A stretch of DNA of 64,000 nucleotides from a virus (lineage: Duplodnaviria > Caudoviricetes), in IMG/VR virus record IMGVR_UViG_3300029288_004137, positions 128,001-192,000 of that record. One strand, 5' to 3'. Shown piece by piece: positions 16,501-33,014 of the stretch; positions within the stretch are counted from its first letter, which is position 1, and each line of letters starts with the position of its first letter. Below the pieces are notes generated by a model. The model had not been told where the DNA came from and searched no databases. It saw only the letters and a list, made by a program, of their open reading frames with translations. A program made the position numbers and the translations under genes.

Positions 16501-17324
16501 TAATATTTTTTCCCCGTAAATGGATTTGTATCATCTAACATAACATGCTCTTTTGGAAACTTAACTTCTACTGCATTTTCTCTTGTAACAATCCTTGGCT
16601 TATCCTGATTATCCCCATGCCCTATTAAATGACCTAAAACTCTTAAATTAACTGTCTTTTTAAATTTTCTTTCTTCAGTACCCAAATTATTTACTGTATT
16701 TTCAGAAGAATGCTCACCATCAATAAATAATTCATAATGATGTTGATCATAAGAAATAATCAAAGAATCTATACCTTTAGTTCTTGTTATAAACGGTGTT
16801 TGCAACTCATTCATTTGCTGTTGATATTCAGTTGTTATTTTTATTGCATATGATACTTCTACATAAATAGGTAGAGGAATGCTTATTGTTTCATAAACAA
16901 TCTTTTCACTTTTTCTTGGAAAATTTATTTGTCCTCTTTTTCTTAAAGTTTCAGCATTCACAAAATTTGCTGTTTTATCTTGTTTTATTCTTCTTGCAAT
17001 TGTTATTGAACCACCTTTTTCATCATTATATTCTGGCAATGCTGACCATGCTGTTCCTTTTCTTGTTAAATCTTTTTTTTCGCCTGTCCTTTCAACAGTG
17101 ATTAAAGGATAAATTAAAGATCCTTCATCATCTCTTATTTCTTTATTGTTTTTTATTTGAAATGCTCTCTCTGGTGCTACCCAAAGAACAGAAACTTTCT
17201 TCCATCCTTCATTCGTAGTACAAAATAAATTTAAACTTTTATCTACCCAATCATAAACTGCTATATCTATAGTTTCAAATGTAGATGGACTTATCAATGT
17301 TTCCTTAATTATACTATTTGACAT
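16500..17324 (-). CDS. putative tail terminator / sheath stabiliser (gp15-like)
   Basis: PERAFQIK, RD..G.LIYPLITVER, P.YVEVSY.I...QQQMNEL; position between neck and sheath genes. Confidence 0.55.
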   Translation of the reverse strand: MSNSIIKETLISPSTFETIDIAVYDWVDKSLNLFCTTNEGWKKVSVLWVAPERAFQIKNNKEIRDDEGSLIYPLITVERTGEKKDLTRKGTAWSALPEYNDEKGGSITIARRIKQDKTANFVNAETLRKRGQINFPRKSEKIVYETISIPLPIYVEVSYAIKITTEYQQQMNELQTPFITRTKGIDSLIISYDQHHYELFIDGEHSSENTVNNLGTEERKFKKTVNLRVLGHLIGHGDNQDKPRIVTRENAVEVKFPKEHVMLDDTNPFTGKKY

Positions 17325-18078
17325 TCTTTATCCTTCTCCATACTTCATCAAGATCAAGCATCTTAAAACGATCTGATTCGTCTTGATCTGATACTTTTTC
17401 TGATCGTTGAATATCTTTTAAATCAAGATTACTTGCCCTTTCTGCTTCTCCTTGATCTGATTTTGCTGATACTGGAATATCTTCCAAATCCACTTGATTC
17501 CAATTTGCTTCTGCATCCTTCCTTTTTTTCCACTGTTTATATACTTCACTGTCTTTAATTTTTGTTCCATCAGCACCATTATCAAGCAAATATATAACAA
17601 TATCAAAATGACCATTTCGTACTGCTATTTGTAAAGACCAATCTTGTTGAGCATGAATATCAGCACCATGTTCAACAAGACATTTAACTATATCAAAATA
17701 ACCAAATTGTGCTGCCCATCTTAAAGGTTCATCATTAAGAGCATGAATATCAGCACCAAGTTCAACAAGATATACAACAATATCAAAATAACCACTGTAT
17801 ACTGCCCATCTTAAAGGATAATCATCCCAAGCATGAATGTTAGCACCATGCTCAATACAATATTTAACTTTATCTAAATCACCAATTTCTAGCGCACCAA
17901 CTAATTTACGATCTAATTCCGTTTCTTCTTTTAATAAAATTATTCTTTTTCGTATTTCATTTAATTCTATTTTTTTTCTTTCACTTTCATTTTCATTATA
18001 TGATTCCAAAGAATTTTCTAATTTTTTTATCATTGTCTGAACTTCATCATTTTCTTTTTCTAATGAATTTGTACTCAT
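17314..18078 (-). CDS. ankyrin-repeat protein bounded by conserved linker motifs
   Basis: About 4 repeats of GADIHA..D.PLRWA...GYFDIV.YLVE at 90-nt period; N-terminal IELNEIRKRIILLKE and C-terminal LDLDEVWRRIKNVK. Confidence 0.85.
   Translation of the reverse strand: MSTNSLEKENDEVQTMIKKLENSLESYNENESERKKIELNEIRKRIILLKEETELDRKLVGALEIGDLDKVKYCIEHGANIHAWDDYPLRWAVYSGYFDIVVYLVELGADIHALNDEPLRWAAQFGYFDIVKCLVEHGADIHAQQDWSLQIAVRNGHFDIVIYLLDNGADGTKIKDSEVYKQWKKRKDAEANWNQVDLEDIPVSAKSDQGEAERASNLDLKDIQRSEKVSDQDESDRFKMLDLDEVWRRIKNVK
17344..17379. repeat. 36-bp identical dispersed repeat, copy 1 of 4
   Basis: TTCATCAAGATCAAGCATCTTAAAACGATCTGATTC (+ strand); encodes ESDRFKMLDLDE on the minus strand. Confidence 0.95.
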
Positions 18079-18092
18079 TCTTTCTCACAAAA

Positions 18093-18578
18093 TTAAGTTA
18101 TATTAAAACCACCTTTTCTAATTCTAATACATGTCGCTTCAATAGAAATTTTATATTGAACCTGACCAAAAAACAATCTTGGTTCATTGAGTTCTACTAT
18201 TTCATAATAATTTTTACCATAAACTACTACATCACCAACTCTAACATATAAATCTTGATCCTCTGTTATTCTTCTTTCATGAAAATGTATTTTTATTGAA
18301 GATCTACGATCTACTCCTAAATCCGTTGTTTCTGTCTTATGACCTTCCCATTCAACCATAGCATATACATGCACAGGTGGTAAATATGTTTTATATATTG
18401 CTTCTCCATATAAAGAATGAAAATTTGTATGCTCAACACTTATCGGATAATAAAGAACATTTTGTCCAACAACTCTTTCAACAACTTCATCAGAAATCTG
18501 TTTTGAAAAATCTCTCTCTTTCTCATTCGTAAATAAAGGAGGCGGAGGAGCTTCTGCCCTTTCCCATTCATTTGACAT
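18093..18578 (-). CDS. neck / head-tail connector protein (gp14-like)
   Basis: GQNVLYYPI...LYGEA..K...PPV, VRVGDVV.Y...YYEI; neck-module position. Confidence 0.65.
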   Translation of the reverse strand: MSNEWERAEAPPPPLFTNEKERDFSKQISDEVVERVVGQNVLYYPISVEHTNFHSLYGEAIYKTYLPPVHVYAMVEWEGHKTETTDLGVDRRSSIKIHFHERRITEDQDLYVRVGDVVVYGKNYYEIVELNEPRLFFGQVQYKISIEATCIRIRKGGFNIT

Positions 18579-20556
18579 TCTTTATCCTTCTCCATATTTC
18601 ATCAAGATCAAGCATCTTAAAACGATCTGATTCACTTTGATCTGTTGATGTTTTTGTTCTTGGAATATCATTAAGATCAAGTGTTTGTGCCCTTTCTGAT
18701 TCAGATTGATCGCTTACTGATTTTATTGGAATTTCTGTTAAATCTGCTTGAGTCCACCTGCCTTCTGCTTCTTTTCTTTTATTTTCTGCATCCTTCTTTT
18801 TTTCCCACTGTTTATATACTTCATCATCTTCAATAAATGTTCCATCTACACCATTATCAAGCAAATATTCAATAATATCAAAATGACCATTTTCTAACGC
18901 TTCCCTTAAAGCATAAGGTTCAACAGTATGAATATCAGCTTTATCCTCTCTTTTATCAGAAAGCAGATATTTAACAATATCAAAATGGCCCTCTGCTACC
19001 GCAAACCTTAAAGGATAATCATTCCAAACATGAATATCAGCACCATACTTAATGCATTCTTTAACTTTATTTAAAGAACCACTTTCTACAGCGTCTACCA
19101 ATTCACGATCTAAATAGAAATCTTCTTTTAATAACTTTATTCTCTTCATAACCTCATTAAGATTAAATTTATTTACTTCATCATCTGATATGTTTTTAAA
19201 CTTTCCTTTTATTGCTTTAATTTTTACATCTTTTGATATATTTTTTTTATTTAAATTTTTAATAAAATCTTCCAAAGAAATTTCTTTATCTAATTTTCTT
19301 TTATTTTCTTGTTCCTCTTTCTTTTTTTCTATTTCTTTCCTTTTTTCTTCAACCTTTTTAAACAATTGAGAAATTTCTTCTATTTGTTCTGGATTATTCT
19401 TCTCTATGTCTGCCTTTGCCATATTTATTAAATACTTTATATTCTTATATAATTTATCATTTTTTGCAAGAAATTCATAATTTCCAGTATCAATCGCATT
19501 AAAAACATCCATATGATGCTCAATTAAAAACAATAATAATTCCTTATCTTTATAAACAATCTCATCAAGAATTTTATTGGCAATTTCTATTCCAGACTTC
19601 GCATGTCCATGAAAAGAAATTTTTCCATCTTTTTCTTCTCTTGTCGATAACTTACCCACATCATGCAAAATTGCTAATAATTTATATAACTCTTTTTCTT
19701 CTACTGATGTGAATTCAATTAATTTATTCATAGAATTTAACACATTTTCTGTATGCTGTGCTGTAGTTTCTCCTTTATGAAATTTTGTGTCTTCTATTGA
19801 AGATTCCATCCCTTTCCAAATATTTCCAAATATTTTTGATTTTTTTATAATTTCTTTTATCTCTTGATTTAAATCTTTATCTTCTTTTAATAGCTTTATT
19901 CTCTTCATAACTTCATCAAGATCAAGCATCTTAAAACGATCTGATTCACCTTGATCTGATACTTTTTCTGATCTTGGAATATCATTAAGTTCAAGTGTTT
20001 TCGCTCTCTCTATTTCAGATTGATCATCGATTACTGGATCTACTGGTTTGTCCTCTAAATCCACTCTTTTCCAGTCTTTTTCTAATATTTCTTGTCTATC
20101 AGACCTTAATTGCTTTATCATCACATCAAGTCTTTCATCATGATACGATGGATTTTCTTCTTTAATATCTTCAAGTCGTTTGATAAATATTGAATAATCT
20201 TGTGATGTTATATTATCAGTTTTTTTCAAAAATTTTATAATAAATGTTAAATTGTTAAGACCATAATTTCCATTATCAAATCCTTGTATTGCCATTGCAA
20301 TCATCGTTGAAGCATCATACTTACTCTTAAAAAGTTTATGAATAAATTCCAAATTTCCTTTAAAAATAGCAATATAAAAAGAATACTCTTTAAATTTTTC
20401 TATTTCTTTTTCTGTTATGACCCCAGTTTCTAATGAATATTTTAAAAAATGATAAAAATGAGACATGTTTACATTTATTCTTACATAATATCTAATGTCA
20501 TCTTTTGCCTTTTTATTCAAATCTACATTCATTAATTTTTCTATATAATTATTCAT
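18568..20556 (-). CDS. multi-module protein: unknown domain + HD phosphohydrolase + ankyrin repeats, separated by a repeated linker
   Basis: HD domain HKGETTAQHT...LHDVGK...FHGHA..G...HHM...AD; ankyrin GADIHVWNDYPLRFA; three copies of the (L/F)(D/N)L(D/N)E(V/I)xxRIK linker. Confidence 0.8.
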   Translation of the reverse strand: MNNYIEKLMNVDLNKKAKDDIRYYVRINVNMSHFYHFLKYSLETGVITEKEIEKFKEYSFYIAIFKGNLEFIHKLFKSKYDASTMIAMAIQGFDNGNYGLNNLTFIIKFLKKTDNITSQDYSIFIKRLEDIKEENPSYHDERLDVMIKQLRSDRQEILEKDWKRVDLEDKPVDPVIDDQSEIERAKTLELNDIPRSEKVSDQGESDRFKMLDLDEVMKRIKLLKEDKDLNQEIKEIIKKSKIFGNIWKGMESSIEDTKFHKGETTAQHTENVLNSMNKLIEFTSVEEKELYKLLAILHDVGKLSTREEKDGKISFHGHAKSGIEIANKILDEIVYKDKELLLFLIEHHMDVFNAIDTGNYEFLAKNDKLYKNIKYLINMAKADIEKNNPEQIEEISQLFKKVEEKRKEIEKKKEEQENKRKLDKEISLEDFIKNLNKKNISKDVKIKAIKGKFKNISDDEVNKFNLNEVMKRIKLLKEDFYLDRELVDAVESGSLNKVKECIKYGADIHVWNDYPLRFAVAEGHFDIVKYLLSDKREDKADIHTVEPYALREALENGHFDIIEYLLDNGVDGTFIEDDEVYKQWEKKKDAENKRKEAEGRWTQADLTEIPIKSVSDQSESERAQTLDLNDIPRTKTSTDQSESDRFKMLDLDEIWRRIKNVK
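18598..18633. repeat. 36-bp identical dispersed repeat, copy 2 of 4
   Basis: Same 36-mer; near identity to copy 1 extends about 27 bp further left. Confidence 0.95.
19912..19947. repeat. 36-bp identical dispersed repeat, copy 3 of 4
   Basis: Same 36-mer; near identity to copy 4 extends about 50 bp further right. Confidence 0.95.
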
Positions 20557-20560
20557 ACAA

Positions 20561-21841
20561 TTATCCTATATAAATTTTTCTTGGAACACCAGATTTTATC
20601 TTTTGAACATTCTCGATCATTCCTGCTTCTCTTTCAAGAAGTTTATCGTATGTCATTTCTTTTAAATCTTCTTTAAAATTATCTTTTAATTCTTTCATCT
20701 CTGCTTGTGCTTCAGTTATTAAAGCAGCACCATCAAGAGTAGCATTATCCCCTGGAATTGGAATTGGAGAATATTTCCTTCTTATATACCCTAGCATTTC
20801 TTTACATATTGCTAATGCATACTTTCTTATCCATCTTTTACCTATTGAATTTATCGCACTATAAGGTATATTTGTAAAAGGTAAAGTACCAAGATTATTT
20901 GCTCCACTTAATCCAGTATCATTATCTGAATCTTCTTCTGTCCAAGGATTTTTTAATATTTTAAATTCAAACCACATCTTTTGAACATAAGAATCTCTTG
21001 GAGGTGGAAATATTCTTAATTTATTATTTCTTATCGTATATGAAAAATTAGATAATCTTGTGCTTATCGCATCTTTATACATAATTGATTGTAATTTATT
21101 CTGCCAAACAGGTACTACCTCATAAACTGTAGAATCTGCATATTGACCATAATTTGATAGATTACCTACAACATTAACTCCACCATGATATCCATAAAAA
21201 TTCCAAAAAGCAGCTTTCGTTTTATAATAAACTTTCGTAATAACAATTTTCTTTATTGATCCACTAGCACCTACTAAACCAGCATAATCTACTCCACCTT
21301 CAGCAGAAGATTCTTCAACTATTGATTGAAGATCATAATCTTGTTTTTCATCTTCTATATTAAAAGAAGCAGAATAAAAAGTTACATCTCCACCTATTCT
21401 TGCTTCTGACGCAAGAGTATTTCCTATCTTTCTAGCTGCCATAAATTGAATCTTAGGATACTTTAATTCAATGTTTGATCCAGATAAAGCATCCCCAACA
21501 AGCACTTGTCCATTGCCATCAAAAGATGCAGTTTGAAATCCTAATAAACTTCCAATTGTATTATATCCTTGATGAATATTCATTAAATATGAATATTCTA
21601 AACATGCTTCCTCATATGATGCATATACTTGATATTCTGTTATTTCAACATTTAATACATCACCCCCAAGTCTATGATATACATAATTGACTTGTTCTAC
21701 AGCAGCATTTTTAAAATCTGAAGAATCATACACACCAAATGGTAATGGATTTGTTGTTATATCTACATTTGAAACTGTTCCTGTTATTGGAAGTGCTATT
21801 GCAACTGTTGTACTGACTGGACTTAACACAGGATAAGCCAT
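20561..21841 (-). CDS. neck protein (gp13-like)
   Basis: LGGDVLNVEIT, WIRKYALAICKEMLG.IRRKY..IPIPG...LDG..L. ATG at 21841 has SD GGAG (the track starts at 21853). Confidence 0.75.
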   Translation of the reverse strand: MAYPVLSPVSTTVAIALPITGTVSNVDITTNPLPFGVYDSSDFKNAAVEQVNYVYHRLGGDVLNVEITEYQVYASYEEACLEYSYLMNIHQGYNTIGSLLGFQTASFDGNGQVLVGDALSGSNIELKYPKIQFMAARKIGNTLASEARIGGDVTFYSASFNIEDEKQDYDLQSIVEESSAEGGVDYAGLVGASGSIKKIVITKVYYKTKAAFWNFYGYHGGVNVVGNLSNYGQYADSTVYEVVPVWQNKLQSIMYKDAISTRLSNFSYTIRNNKLRIFPPPRDSYVQKMWFEFKILKNPWTEEDSDNDTGLSGANNLGTLPFTNIPYSAINSIGKRWIRKYALAICKEMLGYIRRKYSPIPIPGDNATLDGAALITEAQAEMKELKDNFKEDLKEMTYDKLLEREAGMIENVQKIKSGVPRKIYIG

Positions 21842-21871
21842 TATTTTCTCCAACGATAGACTAACCTGTAA

Positions 21872-21879
21872 TAAGTAGT
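21872..21879 (-). promoter_or_regulatory. putative late promoter motif ACTACTTA upstream of the neck operon
   Basis: 31 nt upstream of the 21841 start. Confidence 0.5.
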
Positions 21880-21899
21880 TTGTTTAAATTATAAACTTA

Positions 21900-23363
21900 T
21901 TAATGAAGAAAATCCATTATATATATATTTGATCCACATCCATATATTTTTTGAACATTTGCTTCTTCTGCTATTTGTTTTTCAGTTTTTCCTAAAATTG
22001 ACCTAAAAATAAATCGATTAAAACGATCCTTTCCATCTGTATAACCATATGATGGATTCGTATATCCAAACAATGTAAATCCACTTTTTAAATAAACCTT
22101 TCCATCTCCATAATTCAAATCTGCATAACTTAAAATTCCACTATACCCATTGTTCTTAGACCACAAAATTACTGCTTTTAAAAGTCTAGAAAAACCTCCT
22201 CTCACAACTACATTTAATTTATTAGCAAAACGACATATCTCTATCTTCCCTTTATATTTTGTATGAAAAGGTCCCCTCAATGATAAACAAGAAACTAGTT
22301 CGTCTTTATATACCAAACCAAATGCCATTTTAGAAACAGAATAACCAGAAATATGATTATTTTCAAAAAAGTTTTTATATTGATTATTTCTAAATAATTC
22401 AACAACTTTACATTTTCTTGCATCAATCTTTGTTTCTACTTTTCCAAGTTTATATTTAATCATTGATTTAATAATTTTTTGCTTATTTCTCCATTCATCT
22501 GAATAAATTTGGAATAAAGATATACCTTTTTCCAAACATCCTAAATATTTATCTTGATGATATCTTTTAGATTTAGTTACTTCGTTATGCCAAAATAAAC
22601 CATTATATTCTATAGCAATCTTTTTTTCTGGAATGTATATGTCTAATTCTTTTGGTCTTAAAATAGTTCTGTCTCCTCTTATTATATTATATTCTTCTGC
22701 TACTGAAGAAATAAATTCATATAATTCATATTCTTCTTTTGATTTCCCAGAAAAACAATATTTGCATGAAGAACCTTTATGTAAAGTCATTAAATTATTT
22801 TCTTGTTCTTTTCCACATAACAAACATTTAACTTTAACTGTTTGAAGTCTTGAAAAATATTCATCAAATGGAGTTAAAAGTTCTAGTTTGTTTTCTTCAA
22901 TAAATTTTTGTTTATATTCATTGAATTTTTCTTCAGTTAAAGCACTTGCATTTTTTTTGCCAGATATTGATATTGAATATTTTAAAATTGATTCATTCGT
23001 TTCTTTCGTTAATCCCTTTTTCCATCCTGCATCAATTGTTTTACTTTCTATACCATCAAAACCATATTGTTTTGACCAACTTTTTCTTCCTTCTCCAGCA
23101 TGATCAAAACAAAACCTTTTAAATCCATATTTTCCTTTCACATAACTTGTCTTCTGTCCACAAATAGGACAAACAGGACGATTTGCTTTAAAAAAATACA
23201 TTTCTACATATTTTTCCATTGAAAAATTATGAAACGCTCCAACATGTCCTGCTAATCCTGCTTTACTTTTAAATAATTTTTTGCAAATTTGACATTCAAC
23301 TTTTTCTTTTTCTGTAACTTCTGCACATATATCAAAATGACCTTTGTTCCTATCCCCACTCAT
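21900..23363 (-). mobile_element. free-standing homing endonuclease (Hef-like, PD-(D/E)xK/Vsr-type) with zinc-finger N-terminus
   Basis: C2H2 finger and CxxC motifs, SKEE..L, ELDIYIPEKKIAIEYNGLFWH, IYSDEW, ARKC, GGFSRLL, SYAD. ATG at 23363 has SD AGGAG (the track starts at 23393). Confidence 0.75.
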
Positions 23364-23488
23364 ATCTTTTCTCCTTCTTCTATTTAAATCCATAATATCA
23401 TATTTAAATAGTTTTGTTAAGGGGATTATGACTTGCTATTTATTTTTGAAAAACAACAAAGGGGTAATGACTATATTTTATTGAAATT

Positions 23489-23524
23489 AAAAAAATGCCC
23501 TTCAAAAGATATTGAAGGGCATTT
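23489..23524 (-). terminator. rho-independent terminator after the major capsid gene
   Basis: 13-bp perfect stem AAATGCCCTTCAA/TTGAAGGGCATTT with a 6-nt loop, followed by a T-run on the minus strand, 26 nt after the capsid stop. Confidence 0.85.
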
Positions 23525-23549
23525 GTGTTAGAAATTACTTAATGATTAC

Positions 23550-25334
23550 TTAACCTTGGAGATCTCTGATAATGACAAGACCATACATATCAGGACGTAC
23601 CATCTTTTTCCCGTATCTCGTCATGACTCCTTTTCTTGGTGTGAAATTCTCAGGATCGAAGATCACAGGAGTTGTTTGGAGAGGCACGTATGGTGAATAA
23701 ACGTATCCACTTTCAAGGAACGAAGATCCTTTTCTACCAACAAGGATTACGTTTCTATAGAAATATGGTGATACATAAATATCCCATTTATTGCTAATAC
23801 TACCCACCTTGATGCTTCCTGCTGATCCTTTCTCATCATCAGGTGCCGTAACGTTTGTAGAGAATCCACGAACCATCTCAAGAATTGCAGATGTTTCAGG
23901 ACCACAGACGAGGAAGTTTGCACCACCCCGAAGTGTCTTTCTATGAATTTCTGCCGATACGTCATTGATAGTTTCAAGCAATGTTTGATACCATTCAGAC
24001 ACGTTACCAGTGAAATCAGGAGGAGCTGTAGCACTTGTGATATCTGCACCAGTCTCTCTATTAACAAAGAGTCCAGGGCGTCTTGACCAATAATATGTCC
24101 GTGCTGTAGCACCCTTTACTAAGTCTTGAAGAATTTCACCATCGATTTCCATACCAATGTGCTCAGAAAGAACCGAAGTTAATTCTGTTTCAGCATCAGT
24201 TGAGTGATATGCTTGAAGATCTTGACCTGCTTCAGGTGTCCATACCGCCTTAAGTTTTCTTGTTTGTGCGACAATAGGAATACTATCAACCTTAATGTTG
24301 ATTTCAGGAATTGAATCCTCGTTTTCTAATTGCCAAACAGAACCTCCCACAACTGCTCCAATACCACTGCTTACTTCAGAAATATTATCATTGATAGAGA
24401 ATGACATTTCCATATCAGATGTAGCAGAAGCAGAAGACCACTTGTTTGTATCTGCATCAAAACTTGCATCCACATTTGCAGTAGCAACTAAAAATACAAA
24501 TCTAACATAAAGAGGATATGCTGAATAATCAGGTGCTCCTGCTGAGTCACAAAGACATGTTAATCTTCGTACAAGTTGTCCCATTGAAGAACTTAATGCT
24601 GTTCCACCCGTAGGAAGCAAGTTAATAGAAGAATAATCCTTTACATTGAATTGATCCCAATCTGCTGTTCCATCTGTATGAGTTTCAAATGTAGAGGTTA
24701 ATGCTACAGCAACAAGAGCAGAATAACTTGCTTTTCCAATAAGATCTTCATCCCATTGAATCAACTTTCCCTGAGCGTCTGTGACTGTTCCATCAAGATC
24801 AATCGCATCAGCAACAAGAACAATAGACTCAGAAGGAACATTATTATAACCGATTGCATGAGAATAACTGTTATTAAGATTATAGAGCCCTTTTTCTGCA
24901 TAAGGATCTGTAATCGAAACACCATTGGCAATTTCAGAAGCAACTGAATCAGTACCATAAATTGAACCACCAGTGCTAAGCGGTCCTCTTGTTGAATTAT
25001 ATCTGAAATCCAAGAAGAATATCAGTCCTGATGGTAAACTCATTGGTTGAACAGAAACTACATCATTTGCTAAAAGTCCAGCAAATACTCTTCGAACAAG
25101 AGGAAATGCAACAGACGCAAATCCTTGAACATCCCCACCTTCCATTGTTGTTGCTTCTCTAAGTAAAGAAGCTGCTTGATTCTCTAAAAGTCTAACCACT
25201 GTATGCTTTCTATACTCATCATGATCAAGACCTTCAAGAAGTCCTGTTTTTGACCACTTTTTAACCAAACGATTCGTTTCAAGAATCATGTCCGGTCTAA
25301 CGATGTCTTCCGTTAATTTCTTTAAGATACCCAT
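23550..25334 (-). CDS. gp23: major capsid protein (gp23-like)
   Basis: LLENQ, FPLVRRVF, VSVQPMSLPSGLIFFLDF, TRKLKAVWTPE..QDL.AYH..DAE.EL, YSPYVPL, FTPRKGVMTRY. Confidence 0.95.
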   Translation of the reverse strand: MGILKKLTEDIVRPDMILETNRLVKKWSKTGLLEGLDHDEYRKHTVVRLLENQAASLLREATTMEGGDVQGFASVAFPLVRRVFAGLLANDVVSVQPMSLPSGLIFFLDFRYNSTRGPLSTGGSIYGTDSVASEIANGVSITDPYAEKGLYNLNNSYSHAIGYNNVPSESIVLVADAIDLDGTVTDAQGKLIQWDEDLIGKASYSALVAVALTSTFETHTDGTADWDQFNVKDYSSINLLPTGGTALSSSMGQLVRRLTCLCDSAGAPDYSAYPLYVRFVFLVATANVDASFDADTNKWSSASATSDMEMSFSINDNISEVSSGIGAVVGGSVWQLENEDSIPEINIKVDSIPIVAQTRKLKAVWTPEAGQDLQAYHSTDAETELTSVLSEHIGMEIDGEILQDLVKGATARTYYWSRRPGLFVNRETGADITSATAPPDFTGNVSEWYQTLLETINDVSAEIHRKTLRGGANFLVCGPETSAILEMVRGFSTNVTAPDDEKGSAGSIKVGSISNKWDIYVSPYFYRNVILVGRKGSSFLESGYVYSPYVPLQTTPVIFDPENFTPRKGVMTRYGKKMVRPDMYGLVIIRDLQG

Positions 25335-25349
25335 TTAAAAAATCCTCCA

Positions 25350-26663
25350 TTAATTTTTCTTACTTTTTATTCCTGCCATTTTTTGCATCTTTTCTTTTAA
25401 AAGTTGTTCTTCTTTCGTTTCACCCGAAGAAGGTTTTCTATTTTTAAGAGCAAATGCAACCTCATTTAAGCGTATTTTGTTTTCTTGTGGTTCTTCAACT
25501 GAATGATTTTCAACAATAATCTTTTTCGTTGAATTCATAAACTTTTCAAAAACACCCTTCGCTTCATTAAGGGTTTTGGTTTTATTAACAGCATCAACAA
25601 GTTCTCTCTTTTGTCGCTCATTCAAAGAGTCACTGCTTAAAACCCTATTTTCTATCATTGTCTGCGTAGTTGTCAAATTCGTTTTCTTTAATTCCTTTCC
25701 GAAAACGATAAGAGCTTCTCTTAACACGTTATTTTGCTCTTCTAAATTAGATAGTCTGTCTCTAATCAAAAAGATATTTCTTTTTAATACTTTATTAACT
25801 TTTTTATATGATTCTTCAAGATCTTCTTCTTTTTTAGGTTTTTCTTTTCTTGAATCTTCTGCTTTTGGAGCTTGATTTAAAATATTTGAATTCTCTTCAT
25901 CTTCTAAATCATTTGTTGCTATTTTGGAAGATTCTTGTGTATTTGAATTAGCACTATAATCACCAATTATTCCTTCTGGTACTGCTTCAAAATCAATTAT
26001 ATCTTCTTCTTTTTCTTCATCTGCATCTAATTCTTCCTCTTCTTCAAGAAATTCTAATGTTCCTTCTTGGAGATAAGATACATTTCCATCTTGTTCTTCT
26101 GGTTTAGATCTTTCTGCTCCTAATTGAGCATCGGTTTCTTCTTTTTCATAATCTAAACTAATATCAGGACTTTCCCCATCACCATCCTCTATATTTAATT
26201 CATCTGTTATTTCTTCTGTTTTTCCTCCATCTTCTTCTTTTGCTATTTGAGATAATTGATCCAAATCAATTGTCATCATTTCATCTTCACCTGGAGAATC
26301 CTTACCACCTATATTTTCTCCATCTGCAAAAGATTTACCTATTTCTTTATCAGAAAAAGGTTCATTTTGAACTGGTGCTTTTGAACCTTCTGCTCCACCT
26401 TCACCAGACATTGTTTCAAGATCTGGAGATCCTTCTCCTCCTAATTCATCTACATCTCCTGTAGATCCTTCGTTTCCACCTAAAAGAAGATCCTTATCTT
26501 CTTCTTTTCCCTCTTCAGCTTCAAAAAGTTTTTTATTAATTATTCTTTTGAATTCTTTTGAATATTTTTCAATTAATTCTGATTGAGCACTTTTTTTCGC
26601 AACATCTTTAAGTGCTTCAGCATCAATGATTGCTCGCTCTAACATTTTTGATTTATCACTCAT
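25350..26663 (-). CDS. prohead scaffold/core protein (gp22-like)
   Basis: Acidic, coiled-coil protein directly upstream of the capsid gene; AIIDAEALK N-terminus and KMQKMAGI C-terminus. ATG at 26663 has SD GGAG. Confidence 0.7.
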   Translation of the reverse strand: MSDKSKMLERAIIDAEALKDVAKKSAQSELIEKYSKEFKRIINKKLFEAEEGKEEDKDLLLGGNEGSTGDVDELGGEGSPDLETMSGEGGAEGSKAPVQNEPFSDKEIGKSFADGENIGGKDSPGEDEMMTIDLDQLSQIAKEEDGGKTEEITDELNIEDGDGESPDISLDYEKEETDAQLGAERSKPEEQDGNVSYLQEGTLEFLEEEEELDADEEKEEDIIDFEAVPEGIIGDYSANSNTQESSKIATNDLEDEENSNILNQAPKAEDSRKEKPKKEEDLEESYKKVNKVLKRNIFLIRDRLSNLEEQNNVLREALIVFGKELKKTNLTTTQTMIENRVLSSDSLNERQKRELVDAVNKTKTLNEAKGVFEKFMNSTKKIIVENHSVEEPQENKIRLNEVAFALKNRKPSSGETKEEQLLKEKMQKMAGIKSKKN

Positions 26664-26687
26664 TTTTAACTCCACTAAATCTAATAA

Positions 26688-26695
26688 TATATAGT
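26688..26695 (-). promoter_or_regulatory. putative late promoter motif ACTATATA upstream of the scaffold-capsid operon
   Basis: 25 nt upstream of the 26663 start. Confidence 0.5.
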
Positions 26696-26710
26696 TATTT
26701 CTGTTTTCAA

Positions 26711-27142: not shown

Positions 27143-27145
27143 CTA

Positions 27146-27370
27146 TTATTCTCCATTCATTTGTTGTTTACTATCTAAATACTTTCTCACTTTTGCTCGT
27201 TCTTTTTTTTCTTTCTTGGCAACAGAAGGTTTTTTATATCTTTTTGAAAAAGCACAAGTTTCCTTTAGTTCTTCAACAAGTTTTTCCTTTTTGGTTAACC
27301 GAATAAACCTCTCAACAAAAGATAATGATGATTCCCCTTTCTCTGCTACCAATTGAAAATTAATTGCCAT
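27146..27370 (-). CDS. rpsU: phage-encoded ribosomal protein bS21 homologue
   Basis: 74-aa basic protein: GES.....RF....KK..LVEELK...RYKKPSVAKKEKKERA matches the bS21 pattern; strong SD GAGGTGAT. Confidence 0.7.
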   Translation of the reverse strand: MAINFQLVAEKGESSLSFVERFIRLTKKEKLVEELKETCAFSKRYKKPSVAKKEKKERAKVRKYLDSKQQMNGE

Positions 27371-27389
27371 ACATCACCTCATAATAAAT

Positions 27390-27782
27390 TTATAAACCAA
27401 AAGCTTTAAGATCTACACCAGGGTCATTTGGATTTACATCTGATAGTGGTGTTCTTCCAAAAATTTCATTTTGTTTCAATTCAACAGGAGATTTAACAGG
27501 AGATAGAGGAACCGTACCTTCAAACATTTGCCCCATTCCTTTTTCTTTGAATGATTTTAATTTTTCTTCTACCACTAAATTATTCATATTCATTCCCATT
27601 AAATTAAGTCTTTTAGGAGTCTTAACAGGACTTGCTTGTTTCTTTTCAACTAAAAATTCTTTATCACTAAAACCTTTAAAAACTTCAGTAATTACTTTTG
27701 ATAACAATCCATCAAAAAGCATTTCATTTACACATTCTTCAATAATCGGTTTTAGTATCTTTTTTAATTCTGATTTCTTCAT
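27390..27782 (-). CDS. hypothetical head-module protein
   Basis: MKKSELKKILKPIIEECVNEML leader; DPGVD C-terminus. Confidence 0.6.
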   Translation of the reverse strand: MKKSELKKILKPIIEECVNEMLFDGLLSKVITEVFKGFSDKEFLVEKKQASPVKTPKRLNLMGMNMNNLVVEEKLKSFKEKGMGQMFEGTVPLSPVKSPVELKQNEIFGRTPLSDVNPNDPGVDLKAFGL

Positions 27783-28402
27783 TTTTCACCTTTATATAAA
27801 ATACTATTTAAAATACGATTTATTTTGTCACTTCTTGTAAAATATAAACTCGTTTTTTGCTTGGATTCTTTCATCAAAAACGCATCAACAGTTGATGGTT
27901 CAGTTACTATATCAAAACAAATTAATTGAAAATCATCTTCAACAATTATATCTTCCCCTTTCTCATGAACAGAACCAAGTCCTCTAGAACTTATACCTAT
28001 CTTTATGCCATCATTGATTAATGACTTTAAAATTTGTCCAGATGGGCCACTTAATACTTTTAATTTTCCATATAAATTTTTGCCTTCCCACCACAATTTC
28101 TTAATAACATGAGAAAGATTTTTTGCATCAATTTCTGAAGAATCTGGATGGTTTAATTCTCCTACAGAACGATTCTCTCTTATAAGTTTTTCATAGTTCT
28201 TAACCTCTGATTCTAATACCTCATAAGGATATATTCTTCCATTTTGGTTTTTTTCATCAGCTTTCTGAAATATTCCTGAAAGATATAAAGCACCATTATC
28301 TCTGATATCTTTTTTTTCTTCTTCTGTCAAGAGGTCCTGACAAACCCCATCTGGACATAAAGAAAAATACTCTCTAAGAATATATTTTTTATTATTTTCC
28401 AT
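27779..28402 (-). CDS. gp21: prohead core protein protease (gp21-like)
   Basis: NQNGRIYP, GELNHP, SH, GISSRGLGS, FDIVTEPST. Confidence 0.92.
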   Translation of the reverse strand: MENNKKYILREYFSLCPDGVCQDLLTEEEKKDIRDNGALYLSGIFQKADEKNQNGRIYPYEVLESEVKNYEKLIRENRSVGELNHPDSSEIDAKNLSHVIKKLWWEGKNLYGKLKVLSGPSGQILKSLINDGIKIGISSRGLGSVHEKGEDIIVEDDFQLICFDIVTEPSTVDAFLMKESKQKTSLYFTRSDKINRILNSILYKGEK

Positions 28403-28814
28403 TTTTTTTGCTTTCTACTAATCCCTTGTATATTTCTTTATAAATTTTGTTTTCATAAAGTCCATTAGGTAAATCAAATGGATCATACATAGGATCTACA
28501 TTAGGATCTTCTGTCCCATCCATTTCAAAATCTCTTTTTCTTGAATTTGCATAATCCATTTTTGTTTTTCCAGAATATTTAGGATCTGGATTTAATCCTT
28601 CTACATCCCCAAATTCTTCATAGTTTGGATCTTCATTATAAAGTTCCTCTTCCTCAGGCATTTCTTCTTCATAATAAGATTCTTCTCCAGCATCAAAACC
28701 TTGTGGATCATTATCCCAATAATCACTAAAATCTTCATTTAATTTTGATCCTTTCAATGCTCTTTTTACTTCTTCTTTTACAATCTTTTTTAAAGTATTC
28801 ACTTTAATTTTCAT
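28392..28814 (-). CDS. acidic hypothetical protein with LKKIVKEEV leader
   Basis: 140-aa ORF coupled to the protease gene; SD GGAG. Confidence 0.6.
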   Translation of the reverse strand: MKIKVNTLKKIVKEEVKRALKGSKLNEDFSDYWDNDPQGFDAGEESYYEEEMPEEEELYNEDPNYEEFGDVEGLNPDPKYSGKTKMDYANSRKRDFEMDGTEDPNVDPMYDPFDLPNGLYENKIYKEIYKGLVESKKNGK

Positions 28815-28828
28815 CTCTATTTCTCCAA

Positions 28829-29110
28829 TTAATAATCTAATAAAAATAATAAAACTTGTTCAATTTCTTCTCTGTTTTTCGAATAAACAGTCTGTAATAA
28901 ATAAGTTTTTAACTGTTCATCACTTAATTTATCAAATTTTTCTTTCAATTCACACGAAGAACACTGCTCTTGTGGTTTATTCTTTGGATTTGTTTCGTAA
29001 GGATCAAGTTTCCCCTTCCCACCAGAAGCTAAAATATATGATTCTTTTTTAAGAATAGAATCTACTTCTTCTTTAATAATCTTTTTTAATAACCCTTTTT
29101 TTATTTCCAC
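28829..29110 (-). CDS. hypothetical protein with LKKIIKEEV leader
   Basis: 93-aa ORF, GTG start immediately after the upstream TAG. Confidence 0.55.
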   Translation of the reverse strand: MEIKKGLLKKIIKEEVDSILKKESYILASGGKGKLDPYETNPKNKPQEQCSSCELKEKFDKLSDEQLKTYLLQTVYSKNREEIEQVLLFLLDY

Positions 29111-29185
29111 CTATGACCCCTTACAACAATGTGCCACTCTACGAATTGTAAACCTTTTAAATATTAAATTTTTTTCAATTCTCAT
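29111..29185 (-). CDS. 24-aa basic micro-ORF ending CCKGS, not in the ORF track
   Basis: MRIEKNLIFKRFTIRRVAHCCKGS*; SD AGGTGAT; promoter-like motif 37 nt upstream; stop abuts the next start. Confidence 0.5.
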   Translation of the reverse strand: MRIEKNLIFKRFTIRRVAHCCKGS

Positions 29186-29241
29186 ACATCACCTATTATT
29201 AAATCAATAATAACTCCATAATAAATAGATTAATAATTTTA

Positions 29242-30399
29242 CTATTGTACTTTTTCTTTTTCTACCTTTGAATAATGTTTAACAAAAGTATCTTCTAGTA
29301 ATTCTGCCATTTTATATAGTTCTCTTCCATATGATTTACTATCACAAAATACAGTCTTTTCTCTATAATCTTCTTTTGATACTAGCATACCTCTGTGCTT
29401 GCCATCTTTATAATGTCCAGAACCTACAATTGTTCCAGTCTTTATTATAAATCCAGTTAATCGTATTTTTTTAAGATCTTGAATTGATATAAAAATCTCT
29501 GTGTAATAAGCATTAATTTCACGATCATTATAACAGTATATAAAATGAGGAGAATCTGTTTCAACAAATTCATAACTAAATTGAGCAAGAACTCTCTCCG
29601 TAATACTAATAAATTGCTTCTTTTTATCGTATTTTTGTTTTTCTGTTTGATTAGAAAGTTTAAAGGTAACATCATCTGATTCTTTAGCACTTTCTTTAAG
29701 TTTTATTCTTCTCCATACTTCATCAAGATCTATCTTTTTTGGATCTAATAATCCTTCAGGAGTAGATCGTTTGAATTTTTCTCTTTCATAATCTATTTTA
29801 TTCGGATCTCTTATTCCTCCAGGAGTAGACCAATTTGTCTTTTCTCTTTCACCCTTTTCATATGGTTCTATTTTAGAAAATCTATCAGATGCATGATCAG
29901 ATTTTATATTTCTTAACTTATTTAACACATTATTAATTTCTTCTTGCTCTTTTTCTTTTCTTTTGTTTATTTGATAAAGATTTGTTTCTGGAGTATCTAA
30001 ATCACCATAGTCTCTTTCTGATGCTGAAACAAACTGAATGCTTTCTTCCCCATAAATTTTATTAAGAAATTCATCATTATACCCAAATTCATTAAGTTCA
30101 TCTCTAGAAAAAATTTCTCTTACCTTTCTGTTATAATCCCAATTCCAATTATCACACAAATTTTTTAATGTTTTCATAGCATTAATAAATTGTTTCATGG
30201 AAGAACCATATTCATTATAAATTAATATACTGTTTTTACTTGTATTATCTCTAGCCTCTATATAATCTTCATACATAAGTCTCATTAATCCTTTAATATG
30301 CTGTGTTAAATGACCCCCCATACCTGCTGGCATTTTTGCAGATTGACCACTTACCAGATATTTAACATAGAGCATTTCTTGTTCACTTAGTTTTTTCAT
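29242..30399 (-). CDS. two-module hypothetical protein split by the conserved linker
   Basis: Internal IDLDEVWRRIKLKE, preceded by a 21-aa duplicated segment. Confidence 0.65.
   Translation of the reverse strand: MKKLSEQEMLYVKYLVSGQSAKMPAGMGGHLTQHIKGLMRLMYEDYIEARDNTSKNSILIYNEYGSSMKQFINAMKTLKNLCDNWNWDYNRKVREIFSRDELNEFGYNDEFLNKIYGEESIQFVSASERDYGDLDTPETNLYQINKRKEKEQEEINNVLNKLRNIKSDHASDRFSKIEPYEKGEREKTNWSTPGGIRDPNKIDYEREKFKRSTPEGLLDPKKIDLDEVWRRIKLKESAKESDDVTFKLSNQTEKQKYDKKKQFISITERVLAQFSYEFVETDSPHFIYCYNDREINAYYTEIFISIQDLKKIRLTGFIIKTGTIVGSGHYKDGKHRGMLVSKEDYREKTVFCDSKSYGRELYKMAELLEDTFVKHYSKVEKEKVQ
29702..29734. repeat. 33-bp variant linker repeat, identical to 30707..30739
   Basis: TTTATTCTTCTCCATACTTCATCAAGATCTATC; encodes IDLDEVWRRIK. 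Confidence 0.9.
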
Positions 30400-30704
30400 T
30401 AGTTTTCTCTCTTATTCAAATTTATTTTTATTCCATTATCATCAATTAATTGACACAAAAAATATGATGTTCCACTACTTAAACATCCCATAACAAATAT
30501 ATCTAAATAAGTATTCGTTATATTAAATATACTTAATATATTTAAAAAATCACAAAACGAAAATATTATTCCAACCCAAAAACCAATGCACATTGGACAA
30601 TGAAAAAAATTATACTTTGGCCTTATTTTATTAAAAATATCACCATAAACAAGAATTTGTGTGCATCCATAACATATAAATATAAAAAATAATAAATTAA
30701 GCAT
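30399..30704 (-). CDS. small membrane protein with CPMC motif (DUF1360-like)
   Basis: Three hydrophobic segments, FHCPMCIGFWVG. Confidence 0.6.
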   Translation of the reverse strand: MLNLLFFIFICYGCTQILVYGDIFNKIRPKYNFFHCPMCIGFWVGIIFSFCDFLNILSIFNITNTYLDIFVMGCLSSGTSYFLCQLIDDNGIKINLNKREN

Positions 30705-33014
30705 TCTTTATTCTTCTCCATACTTCATCAAGATCTATCATATCAAGTTGACTTCTTTTTGATACATCTTCTGGTGATTTAACTTGTGGATACTTTTTCT
30801 TTGCGAATTCTACCCACTCATCCCAAGCACTTAAAATCTGCTGTTCTGTCACCATATAATATGGATTTTTTTTGTTCTCTTTTCTTTCAATTTCAATCCG
30901 ATCTTTTTCAGCATAAAAAAGATCTTTCATCACATCATATAAATTTCTTTTTAACATTTTTGCTTTTTTATAGCAATCAGCAACAAATGCTTCAACTTCT
31001 TTAGGTTCCTTTAAATATTCTGTTACATCTTTAAAATCTTTAAAATTTTTAGGATCATCTATGTTTTCTTCATTTCTTTTATGCTGTCTCGTATGCGTTA
31101 ATTCGTGTGTTAATGTAGATTTAAGTTCAACAACAAATTCAACCGCTAAAGCTAAAGTTCTATATTTACCATTTTTAGATTTACCATATAATTCAGGTGG
31201 TATTATAATTTCTACTTCAACCGTCTTTAAAAACCTTTTTGGATTATCAAGAATCTCATCAATTAAATTTTTTGGTACATAAGGAGCATAGTTAATAACT
31301 ATATTTTTCATCAAACTCTTTTTTTCTGTTTCATAATAAGATACCAAAAACAATTCTACCTTTTTTAAAAGACTTTCATCTCTGGTATTTAAATAAATTC
31401 CAAGAATATCCAAAATATCAGATGTTGCACTTTCTGAAAGGTACTTATCACAAAATTCTGCTAATCCAGCTAAATTTCCAATATTTTCTGGTACTTCTCT
31501 AAGAAAATTTATTACTTTTTCTAATGTTTTCTTTAAAGAATTTTCCACTTGAACTGAATTTAAATAAGATGTCGCACCACTACTATATATTTTTGAAATT
31601 TCTTCAGATTCCTTAACTTTAACACACAAAAAATCTACATCAAATCTATCATTTCCAGGAATTTCGTCTTTTGTAAAAAGAATATATTCCTGTACTGGCT
31701 CATGATTTTTTATTAAATCAATTACTTTTTGAACCACAATTCTTGATATCGCTGTTGTTGTATAATCGGTTACACTTTCATTCAATAACATTTTAAATTT
31801 GTTTTCTTTGCTTTCATCAAGATCAAGCATCTTAAAACGATCTGATTCACTCTGATCTGATACTTTTTCTGATCTTGGAATATCATTAAGTTCAAGCGTT
31901 TTTGTTCTTTCTGATTCAGATTGATCATTTGCTGATTTTATTGGTATTTCGTCTAAATCTACTTGAACCCACCTATCTTCTACTTGTTTTTTCTTCCACT
32001 GTTTATATACTTCGTCGTCTTTAATTGCTGTTTCATCTACACCATTATCAAGTAAATATTCAATAATATCAAAATAACCATAAAGTGCTGCACTTGTTAA
32101 AGCATAATAATCAAGAACATGAATATCAGCACCATTTCAACAAGATATTTTACAATATCAAGATAACCGTATTTTACTGCCCAAAATAAAGGACCCTCCT
32201 TAAAAACATGAATATCAGCACCATGCTCAACAAGATATTTAACCATATCTAAATCACCATTTTCTACTGCCAACCGTAAAGTGCAATCATTAACAGCATG
32301 AATATCAGCACCATGCTCAACAAGATATTTAACAATATCAAAATAACCACGTTTTGCTGCAATTCGTAAAGCATGATCACGTTCAGCATGAATATCAGCA
32401 CCTTGCTCAATTAAATTTTTAACTTTGTCTAAATCACCTTTTTTTGCTGCATCCATTAATTCTAGATCTAAATTTCTATCTTCTTTTAATAATTTTATTC
32501 TTCTCCGTACTTCATCTAGTTCAATCATATCAATTTGATTTCTTTTTGGTTCTTGTGTTTTCTTTTGTTTTATTTCACCTTTGCCATTAAAAATATATCT
32601 TAATAAATTTCTATATTCTTCAAATAAAAATTCATAATTTCTTTGTATATCTTCTTGTGTAGCATTAACAGGAACAACTTTTCCATCTTCAAAAAAAGAA
32701 TATGAAGTTAATTTACCAGTTTGCATATTAAACGACAATGTTGCTGGCTCTGCATTTTTTCTATGTAAATTTCCATCTTTTTCCCAAAACAAAACTAATT
32801 CCTTGTTAAAATCCATATAAAATATCTTTGATGGTATTTTTTTAGGAGGTTCTATACCAATCCATCTAATTGAATAAATACCATTTTCTGTTCCTTTTAT
32901 AAACTCAATTCTTGCATTCCCAATATAAACAAATATTTCATCTTTTTTATATTCTTTTATGCCATCAGCATTTATACCAATACTCTTTAAATAATTTATA
33001 ATACGTCCTTTCAT
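30697..33014 (-). CDS. frameshifted multi-module protein: unknown domain + ankyrin repeats + HExxH zincin-like domain (track ORFs 32097..33014 and 30697..31830 joined)
   Basis: One base is missing at about 32135-32137 (GTT GAA AT GGT GCT GAT). The downstream frame is open from 32136 into the 31830 ORF and continues the ankyrin repeat. HELTH at 31093-31107 with downstream EVEA. Confidence 0.75.
30707..30739. repeat. 33-bp variant linker repeat, identical to 29702..29734
   Basis: Same 33-mer. Confidence 0.9.
31813..31848. repeat. 36-bp identical dispersed repeat, copy 4 of 4
   Basis: Same 36-mer. Confidence 0.95.

What the first reader, a model, noticed from the sequence alone, without database searches (positions are those of the whole stretch)
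17314..33014. Linker-punctuated cargo polyproteins: candidate protease-processed, capsid-loaded effector system
Seen: four accessory genes (17314..18078, 18568..20556, 29242..30399, 30697..33014) carry eight copies of [LIF][DEN]L[DN]E[VI][WMR][RK]RI[KI], near 17340, 17950, 18595, 19145, 19905, 29715, 30720 and 32505, plus a variant LDLDESKENKFKMLLNE near 31810. Internal copies continue L(L)KE and fall at boundaries between unrelated domains: unknown|HD|ankyrin, unknown|ankyrin|zincin, unknown|unknown. All four genes sit among neck and head genes. Known: T4 gp21 protease cuts after Glu in (L/I)-x-E and processes internal head proteins that are injected with the DNA. A gp21 homologue is at 27779..28402, and each internal linker offers two such sites (LDE/LNE and LKE) around a basic amphipathic helix. 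Inference: the linker is a prohead-targeting and cleavage tag that loads polyproteins into the head and releases separate effector domains for injection.
Basis: partly seen in the sequence, partly recalled or inferred. Interest (0 to 1): 0.9.

Follow-up and report, generated by a model that had tools for sequence, protein, structure and literature searches.

The report
Repeated cut-site tag in phage head-module proteins
Four accessory genes among the head genes of an uncultured 210-kb T4-like phage end each protein module with the same short peptide, which fits the cutting rule of the phage's head protease; they are plausibly cargo loaded into the capsid and cut apart there, but nothing shows packaging or cutting, and no other phage searched has the peptide.

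Summary
A 17-residue motif (hydrophobic-x-L-[D/N]-E-[V/I]-x-[R/K]-R-I-K) occurs eight times in four minus-strand genes. Its profile scores 24.8-32.4 bits there. The next best hit among all 597 ORFs of the 209,974-bp genome scores 4.7 bits.

- **Layout:** five copies are internal and followed 9-10 residues later by a second L-x-E. Three are the extreme C-termini. A ninth, degenerate copy keeps both L-x-E sites.
- **Position:** the copies lie outside the Pfam ankyrin and HD domains. At least eleven ankyrin paralogs in the early region lack the motif and start 4-5 residues after it.
- **Protease:** an S77 (gp21-type) protease is present. The capsid protein has L-R-E|A where T4 gp23 is cut.
- **Corrections:** gene 30697..33014 is split here by a one-base indel, but a second assembly has it intact (772 aa). 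The "zincin" rests on an HExxH motif alone.
- **Confound:** the three terminal copies also supply the ribosome-binding site and ATG of the next gene.
- **Distribution:** the linker is unique among 1.84 billion protein representatives, so there is no comparative support.

The load-and-cut reading is the best explanation (about 0.4) but rests on inference. Earlier notes of this scan describe similar linker-joined polyproteins in at least eight other uncultured T4-like phages.

The parts
17314..18078 (-). Gene A (254 aa): 35-aa leader, tag, ankyrin domain, acidic linker, C-terminal tag
   Evidence: Translation. Pfam Ank families, E=4e-24. Tags at aa 36-52 and 240-254.
18568..20556 (-). Gene B (662 aa): unknown N-domain, acidic linker, tag, HD domain, tag, ankyrin domain, acidic linker, C-terminal tag
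   Evidence: HD domain PF01966, 28.9 bits, at aa 266-353. Low-confidence single-sequence AF2 model shows the linkers as coil and the tags as short helices.
29242..30399 (-). Gene C (385 aa): unknown N-part, tag (aa 222-237), unknown C-part; no C-terminal tag
   Evidence: No homologue except itself among 5.8 billion clusters.
30697..33014 (-). Gene D: unknown N-domain, tag, ankyrin domain, acidic linker, degenerate tag, HExxH-bearing region, C-terminal tag. Split in this assembly by a 1-nt indel at 32135-32137; intact (772 aa) in a second assembly.
17317..17361 (-). Terminal tag of A (ends RRIKNVK-stop). Overlaps the SD-like GGAGAAGG and the ATG of the next gene (16500-17324).
17923..17973 (-). 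Internal tag of A (LNE ... LLKE), 4-5 residues before the first ankyrin helix
18571..18615 (-). Terminal tag of B. Overlaps the SD and ATG of gene 18093-18578.
19120..19170 (-). Internal tag of B between the HD and ankyrin domains
19879..19929 (-). Internal tag of B between the acidic linker and the HD domain
29689..29736 (-). Internal tag of C (LDE ... LKE). A 33-nt exact match to the terminal tag of D, with unrelated flanks.
30700..30741 (-). Terminal tag of D (ends RRIKNA-stop). Overlaps the ATG of membrane-protein gene 30399-30704.
31777..31830 (-). Degenerate tag of D. The basic helix is replaced, but LDE and LNE are both kept.
32478..32528 (-). Internal tag of D before the ankyrin domain
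27779..28402 (-). Prohead protease, T4 gp21 family (Peptidase_S77); the proposed processing enzyme
   Evidence: Pfam PF03420, E=4e-35; phrog_207, E=3e-57.
23550..25334 (-). Major capsid protein (gp23 family). LRE|A at residues 58-61 aligns with the T4 gp23 LTE|A maturation site.
   Evidence: Pfam Gp23, E=2.6e-70. BLASTP against T4 gp23.
25350..26675 (-). Probable scaffolding protein (441 aa, acidic middle, helical ends, 12 L/I-x-E sites, one reading IRLNEV)
   Evidence: Position between protease and capsid gene; composition. No family match.
28392..29110 (-). Two small proteins (140 and 93 aa) with a shared N-terminal LKKI[IV]KEEV; candidate core proteins with a T4-style N-terminal propeptide
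   Evidence: Small ORFs near the protease gene in relatives share an N-terminal QLKALIREA.

Best explanation
The motif is a lineage-specific, reusable 'address and cut' tag placed at the end of protein modules. It consists of a cleavage half (hydrophobic-x-L-[D/N]-E) and a 6-10-residue basic amphipathic helix ([V/I]-x-[R/K]-R-I-K). The helix ends either at the protein's C-terminus or at a second L-x-E.

Proposed mechanism:
1. The four late proteins (A-D) are made together with the head proteins.
2. The basic helices hold them on the acidic scaffolding core of the prohead.
3. The gp21-type protease then cuts after the Glu of each L-x-E. This excises the small basic peptide and separates the modules inside the head: three ankyrin domains, one HD phosphohydrolase, one HExxH region and four modules of unknown fold.
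4. The modules would leave the head with the DNA.

Shown here: the motif, its placement at module ends, its restriction to head-module genes, the protease gene, and an L-x-E at the conserved capsid-protein site.

Inferred: binding to the core, cleavage, packaging, ejection and any effector role.
For: **Motif statistics.** There are eight clean copies and none elsewhere in 210 kb.

**What is most conserved.** The only segment shared by all nine copies, including the degenerate one, is the pentapeptide ending L-x-E. That is the published T4 gp21 rule L/I-X-E (PMC9026906).

**Paired sites.** Every internal copy has a second L-x-E 9-12 residues on.

**Peptide conserved beyond its surroundings.**
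- The surrounding paralogous cassettes have drifted to 62-79% nucleotide identity, while the tag stays at 85-97%.
- The copies differ at synonymous positions, so the peptide is what is kept.

**Outside the fold.** Early-region ankyrin paralogs begin with Met 4-5 residues after LLKE and lack the tag and the acidic linker.

**Gene position.** C and D lie between the portal and protease genes, where T4 has core genes 67 and 68. A and B lie between head and neck genes, all co-oriented and tightly packed.

**Protease.** An S77 protease is present, and the capsid protein aligns LRE|A with the T4 LTE|A site.

**T4 precedents.**
- A conserved targeting sequence on diverse internal proteins (PMC3012670).
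- The ejection protein Alt is cut at both ends, ITE-6 and LTE-619 (PMC5694885).
Against: - **No comparative support.** The tag was not found in 21 related loci (protease 41-52% identical) or in IMG/VR by pattern. The linker profile found nothing in 1.84 billion protein representatives. In the metagenome and genome contigs the only pattern hits were a coincidental RNase D match.
- **Position differs from T4.** The T4 targeting sequence is N-terminal. Here the N-termini of B, C and D are untagged.
- **Terminal copies have a second role.** The three terminal copies encode the SD-like GGAGAAGG and the ATG of the next gene, and only they all keep W-R-R.
- **Non-independence.** Six of the nine copies belong to one duplicated cassette.
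- **No depletion of sites.** L/I-x-E sites are not clearly depleted inside the modules (observed/expected 1.02, against 1.21 genome-wide).
- **No mimicry.** The tag shows no significant similarity to the scaffold or other head proteins.
- **Weak models.** The structure models were of low confidence.
Confidence: 0.4

Rival explanations
1. The motif is a cassette junction. In this reading it is mainly the DNA joint at which modules have been duplicated and recombined. At gene ends it is also a ready-made translational-coupling unit (SD plus ATG) for the next gene. The proteins need not be packaged or cut.
For: - The motif is a 30-33-nt island of 85-97% identity between otherwise unrelated flanks, for example a 33-nt exact match between C and the end of D.
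- All eight copies use ATA for Ile and six use the minor Leu codon CTT.
- All three terminal copies provide GGAGAAGG plus AAGAATG for the downstream genes.
- Earlier scan notes on other T4-like phages report linker DNA acting as the module breakpoint (not checked here).
Against: - Codon bias alone predicts 77-85% identity for the same peptide, so the excess is small.
- The copies differ at synonymous sites (TTA/CTT/CTA, GTA/GTT, AGA/AGG/CGA, AAA/AAG), while the peptide and both L-x-E sites are kept.
- The five internal copies have no downstream start codon to serve.
- A junction role does not exclude a peptide function, as with the T4 targeting sequence.
Confidence: 0.2
2. The motif is an uncut docking or oligomerisation helix. 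It would attach A-D to a virion part (capsid surface, neck or portal) or to each other, displaying ankyrin and enzyme modules on the particle or building an assembly factor, with no proteolysis.
For: - The hydrophobic spacing is heptad-like (L3, V6/W7, I10, L13), and the low-confidence model predicts short helices.
- A and B are interleaved with probable neck genes.
- From my own knowledge, not checked here: a C-terminal capsid-binding segment is known for the T4 decoration protein Hoc.
Against: - It does not explain why a second L-x-E follows every internal copy.
- It does not explain why the degenerate copy keeps both L-x-E sites while losing the helix.
- Disordered linkers that carry L-x-E would be expected to be cut if they were exposed to an L/I-x-E protease inside the prohead.
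Confidence: 0.2
3. The proteins are self-processing polyvalent proteins. A-D are multi-effector proteins of the kind described by Iyer et al. 2017. They would be cut at the tags by the HExxH module of D, in the head or in the host, rather than by the prohead protease.
For: - The proteins are multi-module, in a phage with a portal and terminase.
- D carries HExxH with a Glu-bearing segment about 35 residues on.
- The paper predicts processing of such proteins by zincin-like peptidases (PMC5512222).
Against: - The HExxH region matches no peptidase profile and no solved structure. Its only family hit is a weak one to a PHROG of unknown function, and its model is unusable.
- None of the typical polyvalent-protein domains was detected.
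- The conserved L-x-E fits the S77 protease rule.
Confidence: 0.08

Closest known systems
Phage T4 internal proteins IPI, IPII, IPIII and Alt: capsid targeting sequence plus gp21 processing (Mullaney and Black 1996, as reviewed in PMC9026906, PMC3012670 and PMC5694885)
   Same: - A gp21-family protease is present.
- A short conserved peptide ending in L/I-x-E sits on otherwise unrelated, non-essential-looking proteins.
- The genes are co-oriented and tightly packed with the head genes (late timing not tested).
- Alt shows that a C-terminal propeptide can also be removed.
   Different: - The T4 tag is a 10-19-residue N-terminal leader used once per protein.
- Packaging and cutting are not shown here.
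Polyvalent proteins of phages and conjugative elements (Iyer, Burroughs, Anand, de Souza, Aravind 2017, PMC5512222)
   Same: - Several unrelated modules sit in one phage polypeptide that is predicted to travel with the DNA and be processed into parts.
- An HExxH module may be present.
   Different: - These proteins are small (254-772 aa, 1-3 modules).
- They lack the typical anti-restriction, methylase and primase domains.
- They are joined by one repeated linker that fits the head protease rather than a built-in peptidase.
Processed inner-head and ejection proteins of giant phages phiKZ, 201phi2-1 and SPN3US (PMC9026906, PMC10052503)
   Same: Many head-internal proteins are cut after Glu at a short motif by a gp21-related protease, and propeptides contain several redundant sites.
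   Different: - Those phages use S/A-x-E, with long N-terminal propeptides.
- No repeated linker joining separate folded modules has been described in them.
Linker-joined module polyproteins noted by this scan in at least eight other uncultured T4-like giant phages (e.g. QGVAEG and ES-x-V-[N/T]-E linkers; AI notes, unchecked)
   Same: Unrelated modules are joined by a recurring short linker ending in [V/L/I]-x-E, in T4-like phages.
   Different: - The linker sequence differs.
- Here it includes a basic helix with a cut site on each side and also occurs as a C-terminal tail.
- The modules include recognisable ankyrin and HD domains.

Membership tests
T4-type capsid targeting sequence / internal protein system | Genome encodes a gp21-family (Peptidase_S77) prohead protease | tested here: met
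   PF03420, E=4e-35, 121.5 bits against a cutoff of 27.
T4-type capsid targeting sequence / internal protein system | Tag ends in the protease consensus L/I-x-E | tested here: met
   All nine copies have L-[D/N]-E. All six internal copies have a second L-x-E.
T4-type capsid targeting sequence / internal protein system | Tag is a 10-19-residue N-terminal leader | tested here: not met
   The copies are internal (5, plus 1 variant) or at the extreme C-terminus (3). The N-termini of B, C and D carry no copy.
T4-type capsid targeting sequence / internal protein system | Same tag on unrelated cargo, conserved across related phages | tested here: inconclusive
   Met within this genome (flanks unrelated). 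No related phage carries the tag.
T4-type capsid targeting sequence / internal protein system | Tag-dependent incorporation into the prohead core and removal by the protease | not testable with these tools
   Needs virion or prohead biochemistry.
Polyvalent proteins (Iyer et al. 2017) | Two or more unrelated effector-type domains in one polypeptide of a phage with portal and terminase | tested here: met
   B carries unknown, HD and ankyrin modules. D carries unknown, ankyrin and HExxH modules. Portal and terminase are present.
Polyvalent proteins (Iyer et al. 2017) | Zincin-like metallopeptidase domain | tested here: inconclusive
   Only the HELTH motif at 31093-31107. No Pfam or PDB match; one weak PHROG hit of unknown function; AF2 model pLDDT 40.
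Ankyrin repeat (Pfam clan Ank) | Profile match above the curated cutoff | tested here: met
   A: Ank_4, 84.5 bits. B: Ank_4, 56.4 bits. D: Ank_2, 94.8 bits.
HD domain (PF01966) | Profile match above the cutoff, with H...HD...H...D residues present | tested here: met
   26.3-28.9 bits against a cutoff of 22. AQH, LHD, HGH and HHMD are visible in the translation. The nearest phage-record match is the HD part of a tRNA nucleotidyltransferase.

The most novel reading that the evidence does not exclude
This would be a portable, position-independent capsid-loading tag: a basic helix bracketed by two head-protease sites. It would let a T4-like phage load multi-module polypeptides into the prohead through internal and C-terminal tags, then cut them into separate ankyrin, HD and other effectors. 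The terminal form of the tag would also carry the ribosome-binding site and start codon for the next gene, so cargo genes could be inserted between structural genes without breaking their translation.
Probability: 0.3. Interest if true: 0.75.

Novelty: new variant of a known kind. Interest (0 to 1): 0.55.

Why it matters
**If the tag works as proposed:**
- Capsid addressing in T4-like phages would not be limited to N-terminal leaders.
- It would explain how large uncultured phages could deliver sets of small proteins with their DNA.
- It would give a compact, transplantable peptide for loading and releasing several proteins in engineered phage heads.

The cargo (ankyrin repeats, an HD phosphohydrolase) would be new candidates for first-minute host takeover or counter-defence.

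**If it is only a recombination joint:** it is still a clear case of module shuffling at a fixed in-frame junction inside a structural gene cluster.

Tried and rejected
**Comparative searches (nothing found beyond this phage)**
- Megablast of the region against phage records gave no match.
- Regex scan of 21 related IMG/VR loci found no copy. A search for each relative's own repeated peptide found only a shared N-terminal leader on small proteins.
- DNA pattern scans:
  - Viral contigs gave one out-of-context hit.
  - Metagenome and genome contigs gave four hits. All lie in alphaproteobacterial RNase D, carry the same ten residues and have about 61% GC. I judge them coincidental.
- The linker profile against 1.84 billion representatives returned only this phage's own proteins.
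- Homologue searches for gene C and for the HExxH part of D returned only themselves. tblastn against phages found nothing for the HExxH part.

**Structure and complex prediction**
- AF2 single-sequence models: B had mean pLDDT 51.6, so I used only its secondary structure. The D C-terminal part had pLDDT 40 and was unusable, so I ran no fold search.
- Complex prediction of scaffold + protease + terminal tag gave no verdict: score 0.00, controls not run.

**Ideas tested and dropped**
- Tag mimics a scaffold segment: no significant similarity after shuffling (best p=0.027 among 33 tests).
- L/I-x-E is depleted inside cargo modules: ratio 1.02 against 1.21 genome-wide, not informative.
- Programmed frameshift in D: rejected. 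There is no slippery heptamer and a second assembly has the gene intact.
- T4 late promoter TATAAATA upstream of the genes: only one copy in the module, uninformative.
- Clathrin-box-like reading of MLDLD: does not fit the consensus, so dropped.


Full report
**Context**

The window is bases 128001-192000 of a 209,974-bp IMG/VR phage record with about 28% G+C. The minus strand carries a T4-like structural module. In order, it holds:

- large terminase (37503-39101)
- portal with an inserted intein-like segment (34385-37498)
- two small genes
- gene D
- a small membrane protein
- gene C
- two small acidic proteins
- a Peptidase_S77 prohead protease (27779-28402; E=4e-35)
- three small genes
- a 441-aa acidic/helical probable scaffold (25350-26675)
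- a gp23-family capsid protein (23550-25334; E=2.6e-70)
- a homing endonuclease
- a probable adaptor
- gene B
- a small gene
- gene A
- two more genes
- tail sheath and tail tube

The nearest cultured relatives by capsid protein are Microcystis, Rhodothermus and Flavobacterium phages at 33-49% identity.

A regex over the six-frame translation of the whole genome finds exactly eight copies, all in the four named genes.

- An HMM of the eight 17-residue copies scores them 24.8-32.4 bits. The next best of 597 ORFs scores 4.7 bits.
- Five copies are internal and read on to a second L-x-E: LLKE[D/E] in four and LKE in gene C.
- Three copies are the last 14-15 residues of A, B and D.
- A ninth, degenerate copy in D has lost the basic part but keeps LDE and LNE twelve residues apart.

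Gene D needs a correction. In this assembly an A-run at 32135-32137 is one base short, which splits the gene into two overlapping frames. A second assembly of the same phage (209,843 bp) encodes the intact 772-aa protein with exactly the predicted join.

**Anatomy**

- A roughly 60-residue acidic linker precedes four of the tags. It is itself an internal duplication of a DL-x-DIP...DQ-x-E-x-ER unit.
- The unit tag-ankyrin-YKQW-acidic linker-tag is one paralogous cassette found in A, B and D. Its copies are 62-79% identical at the nucleotide level. Six of the nine tags therefore share one history.
- The other three are the informative ones: before the HD domain of B, in the middle of C, and at the end of D. 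There a 30-nt island of 85-97% identity sits between flanks at background identity of about 0.3.
- Strong codon bias alone predicts 77-85% identity for the same peptide. The copies differ at several synonymous positions. The peptide is therefore conserved, with only a mild signal of shared DNA descent.

**Placement relative to folds**

- Pfam places the ankyrin and HD domains between the tags.
- The genome has at least eleven more ankyrin genes in its early region on the other strand. They start with Met exactly 4-5 residues after the position of LLKE[D/E], and they carry a different tail with neither tag nor acidic linker. This is the best evidence that the tag is an add-on specific to the head-module copies and lies outside the fold.
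- A single-sequence AF2 model of B is of low confidence (mean pLDDT 51.6). It shows the acidic linkers as coil and each tag as a short helix.

**Fit to the protease rule**

- The published T4 gp21 rule is cleavage after Glu in L/I-X-E with few other determinants (PMC9026906).
- BLASTP aligns SLLREA (residues 56-61) of this capsid protein with SFLTEA (61-66) of T4 gp23, the T4 maturation site. The specificity is therefore probably kept.
- The only segment common to all nine tag copies is the pentapeptide ending in L-[D/N]-E.
- Counting modules, eight of nine are followed by a tag, whereas the N-terminal modules of B, C and D are not preceded by one. The tag therefore behaves as a module-end signal. 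Cutting at both sites would excise a basic peptide of 9-12 residues; at the termini, one of 8-9 residues.
- T4 offers precedents. A conserved targeting sequence sits on diverse internal proteins (PMC3012670). The ejection protein Alt is trimmed at both ends, ITE-6 and LTE-619 (PMC5694885).

**What weakens the reading**

- The tag and linker are orphans:
  - The tag is absent from the 21 related loci and from the IMG/VR pattern scan.
  - The linker profile found only this phage in 1.84 billion protein representatives.
  - The metagenome and genome pattern scans returned only the same ten residues inside alphaproteobacterial RNase D, which I read as coincidence.
- The three terminal copies overlap the next gene. 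The codons for W-R-R read GGAGAAGG or GGAGAAGA, and K-N-V/A reads AAGAATG, which supplies the SD and ATG of three unrelated downstream genes. Only the terminal copies all keep W-R-R, while the internal ones vary at that position. Part of the conservation is therefore translational. Eleven-base overlaps of this kind also occur at tag-free gene pairs in the module.
- There is no significant similarity between the tag and the scaffold or other head proteins.
- L/I-x-E sites are not clearly depleted in the modules.
- The 'zincin' is only an HExxH motif.

**Side observation bearing on mechanism**

- The two small proteins upstream of the protease share an N-terminal LKKI[IV]KEEV. Small ORFs on the protease strand in two related loci share an N-terminal QLKALIREA. 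These look like classical N-terminal propeptides of core proteins.
- The pattern K[IL][ILV]KE[ED] occurs six times among all ORFs of the genome: three linkers, these two N-termini and one unrelated protein. The second half of the internal tag may be related to that leader, but the evidence is weak.

**Verdict**

- The load-and-cut interpretation is coherent and is my best explanation (about 0.4). Every functional step is inferred.
- The main rivals are a recombination and translational-coupling junction (0.2), an uncut docking helix (0.2) and self-processing polyvalent proteins (0.08).
- Earlier notes of this scan (unchecked) describe comparable linker-joined polyproteins in at least eight other uncultured T4-like phages. 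This is probably one more variant of a recurring theme, with its own linker.
- I found no paper describing the theme for T4-like phages.

Noticed in passing
window 32135-32137: One-base length difference in an A-run splits gene D in this assembly. A second assembly of the same phage has the intact 772-aa protein (P0009).
   Followed up: yes
window 17314-17330, 18568-18584, 30697-30710: The last codons of A, B and D (AAG AAT GTC AAA TAG, or AAG AAT GCT TAA) contain the ATG of the next gene. The W-R-R codons upstream form an SD-like GGAGAAGG. Two unrelated downstream genes therefore both start M-S-N.
   Followed up: partly
window 28392-28814 and 28829-29110: Two small proteins share an N-terminal LKKI[IV]KEEV. 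The 140-aa one (28392-28814) also has a very acidic middle. They are probable gp67/gp68-like core proteins with a T4-style N-terminal propeptide. Small ORFs on the protease strand in related loci L006 and L013 share QLKALIREA[ST]EE.
   Followed up: partly
window 34385-37498: The portal gene is 1037 aa and carries an inserted segment with a LAGLIDADG-like motif (LRGLMDADG) ending SHN|T, which looks like an intein.
   Followed up: no
window 21900-23393: A 497-aa homing-endonuclease-like gene (phrog_3339, E=1e-80) sits between the capsid gene and the next structural gene, as segD does in T4.
   Followed up: no
window 30399-30704: A 101-aa membrane protein with a CPMC motif lies between genes D and C inside the head module. 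It could be a membrane-bound head-assembly factor.
   Followed up: no
window 41135-44206: A single 1023-aa ORF matches SbcD over its first third and SbcC over the rest. It is an apparent SbcD-SbcC fusion.
   Followed up: no
loci L027-L030: The ten residues DLDEVWRRIK occur exactly in RNase D of uncultured Alphaproteobacteria (about 61% GC). I judge this a chance match.
   Followed up: partly
genome 19155-19643 (minus strand; outside the window): A 162-aa early-region ORF ends in IDLDEIFQLGVG. It is the next-best, very weak match (4.7 bits) to the tag profile.
   Followed up: no
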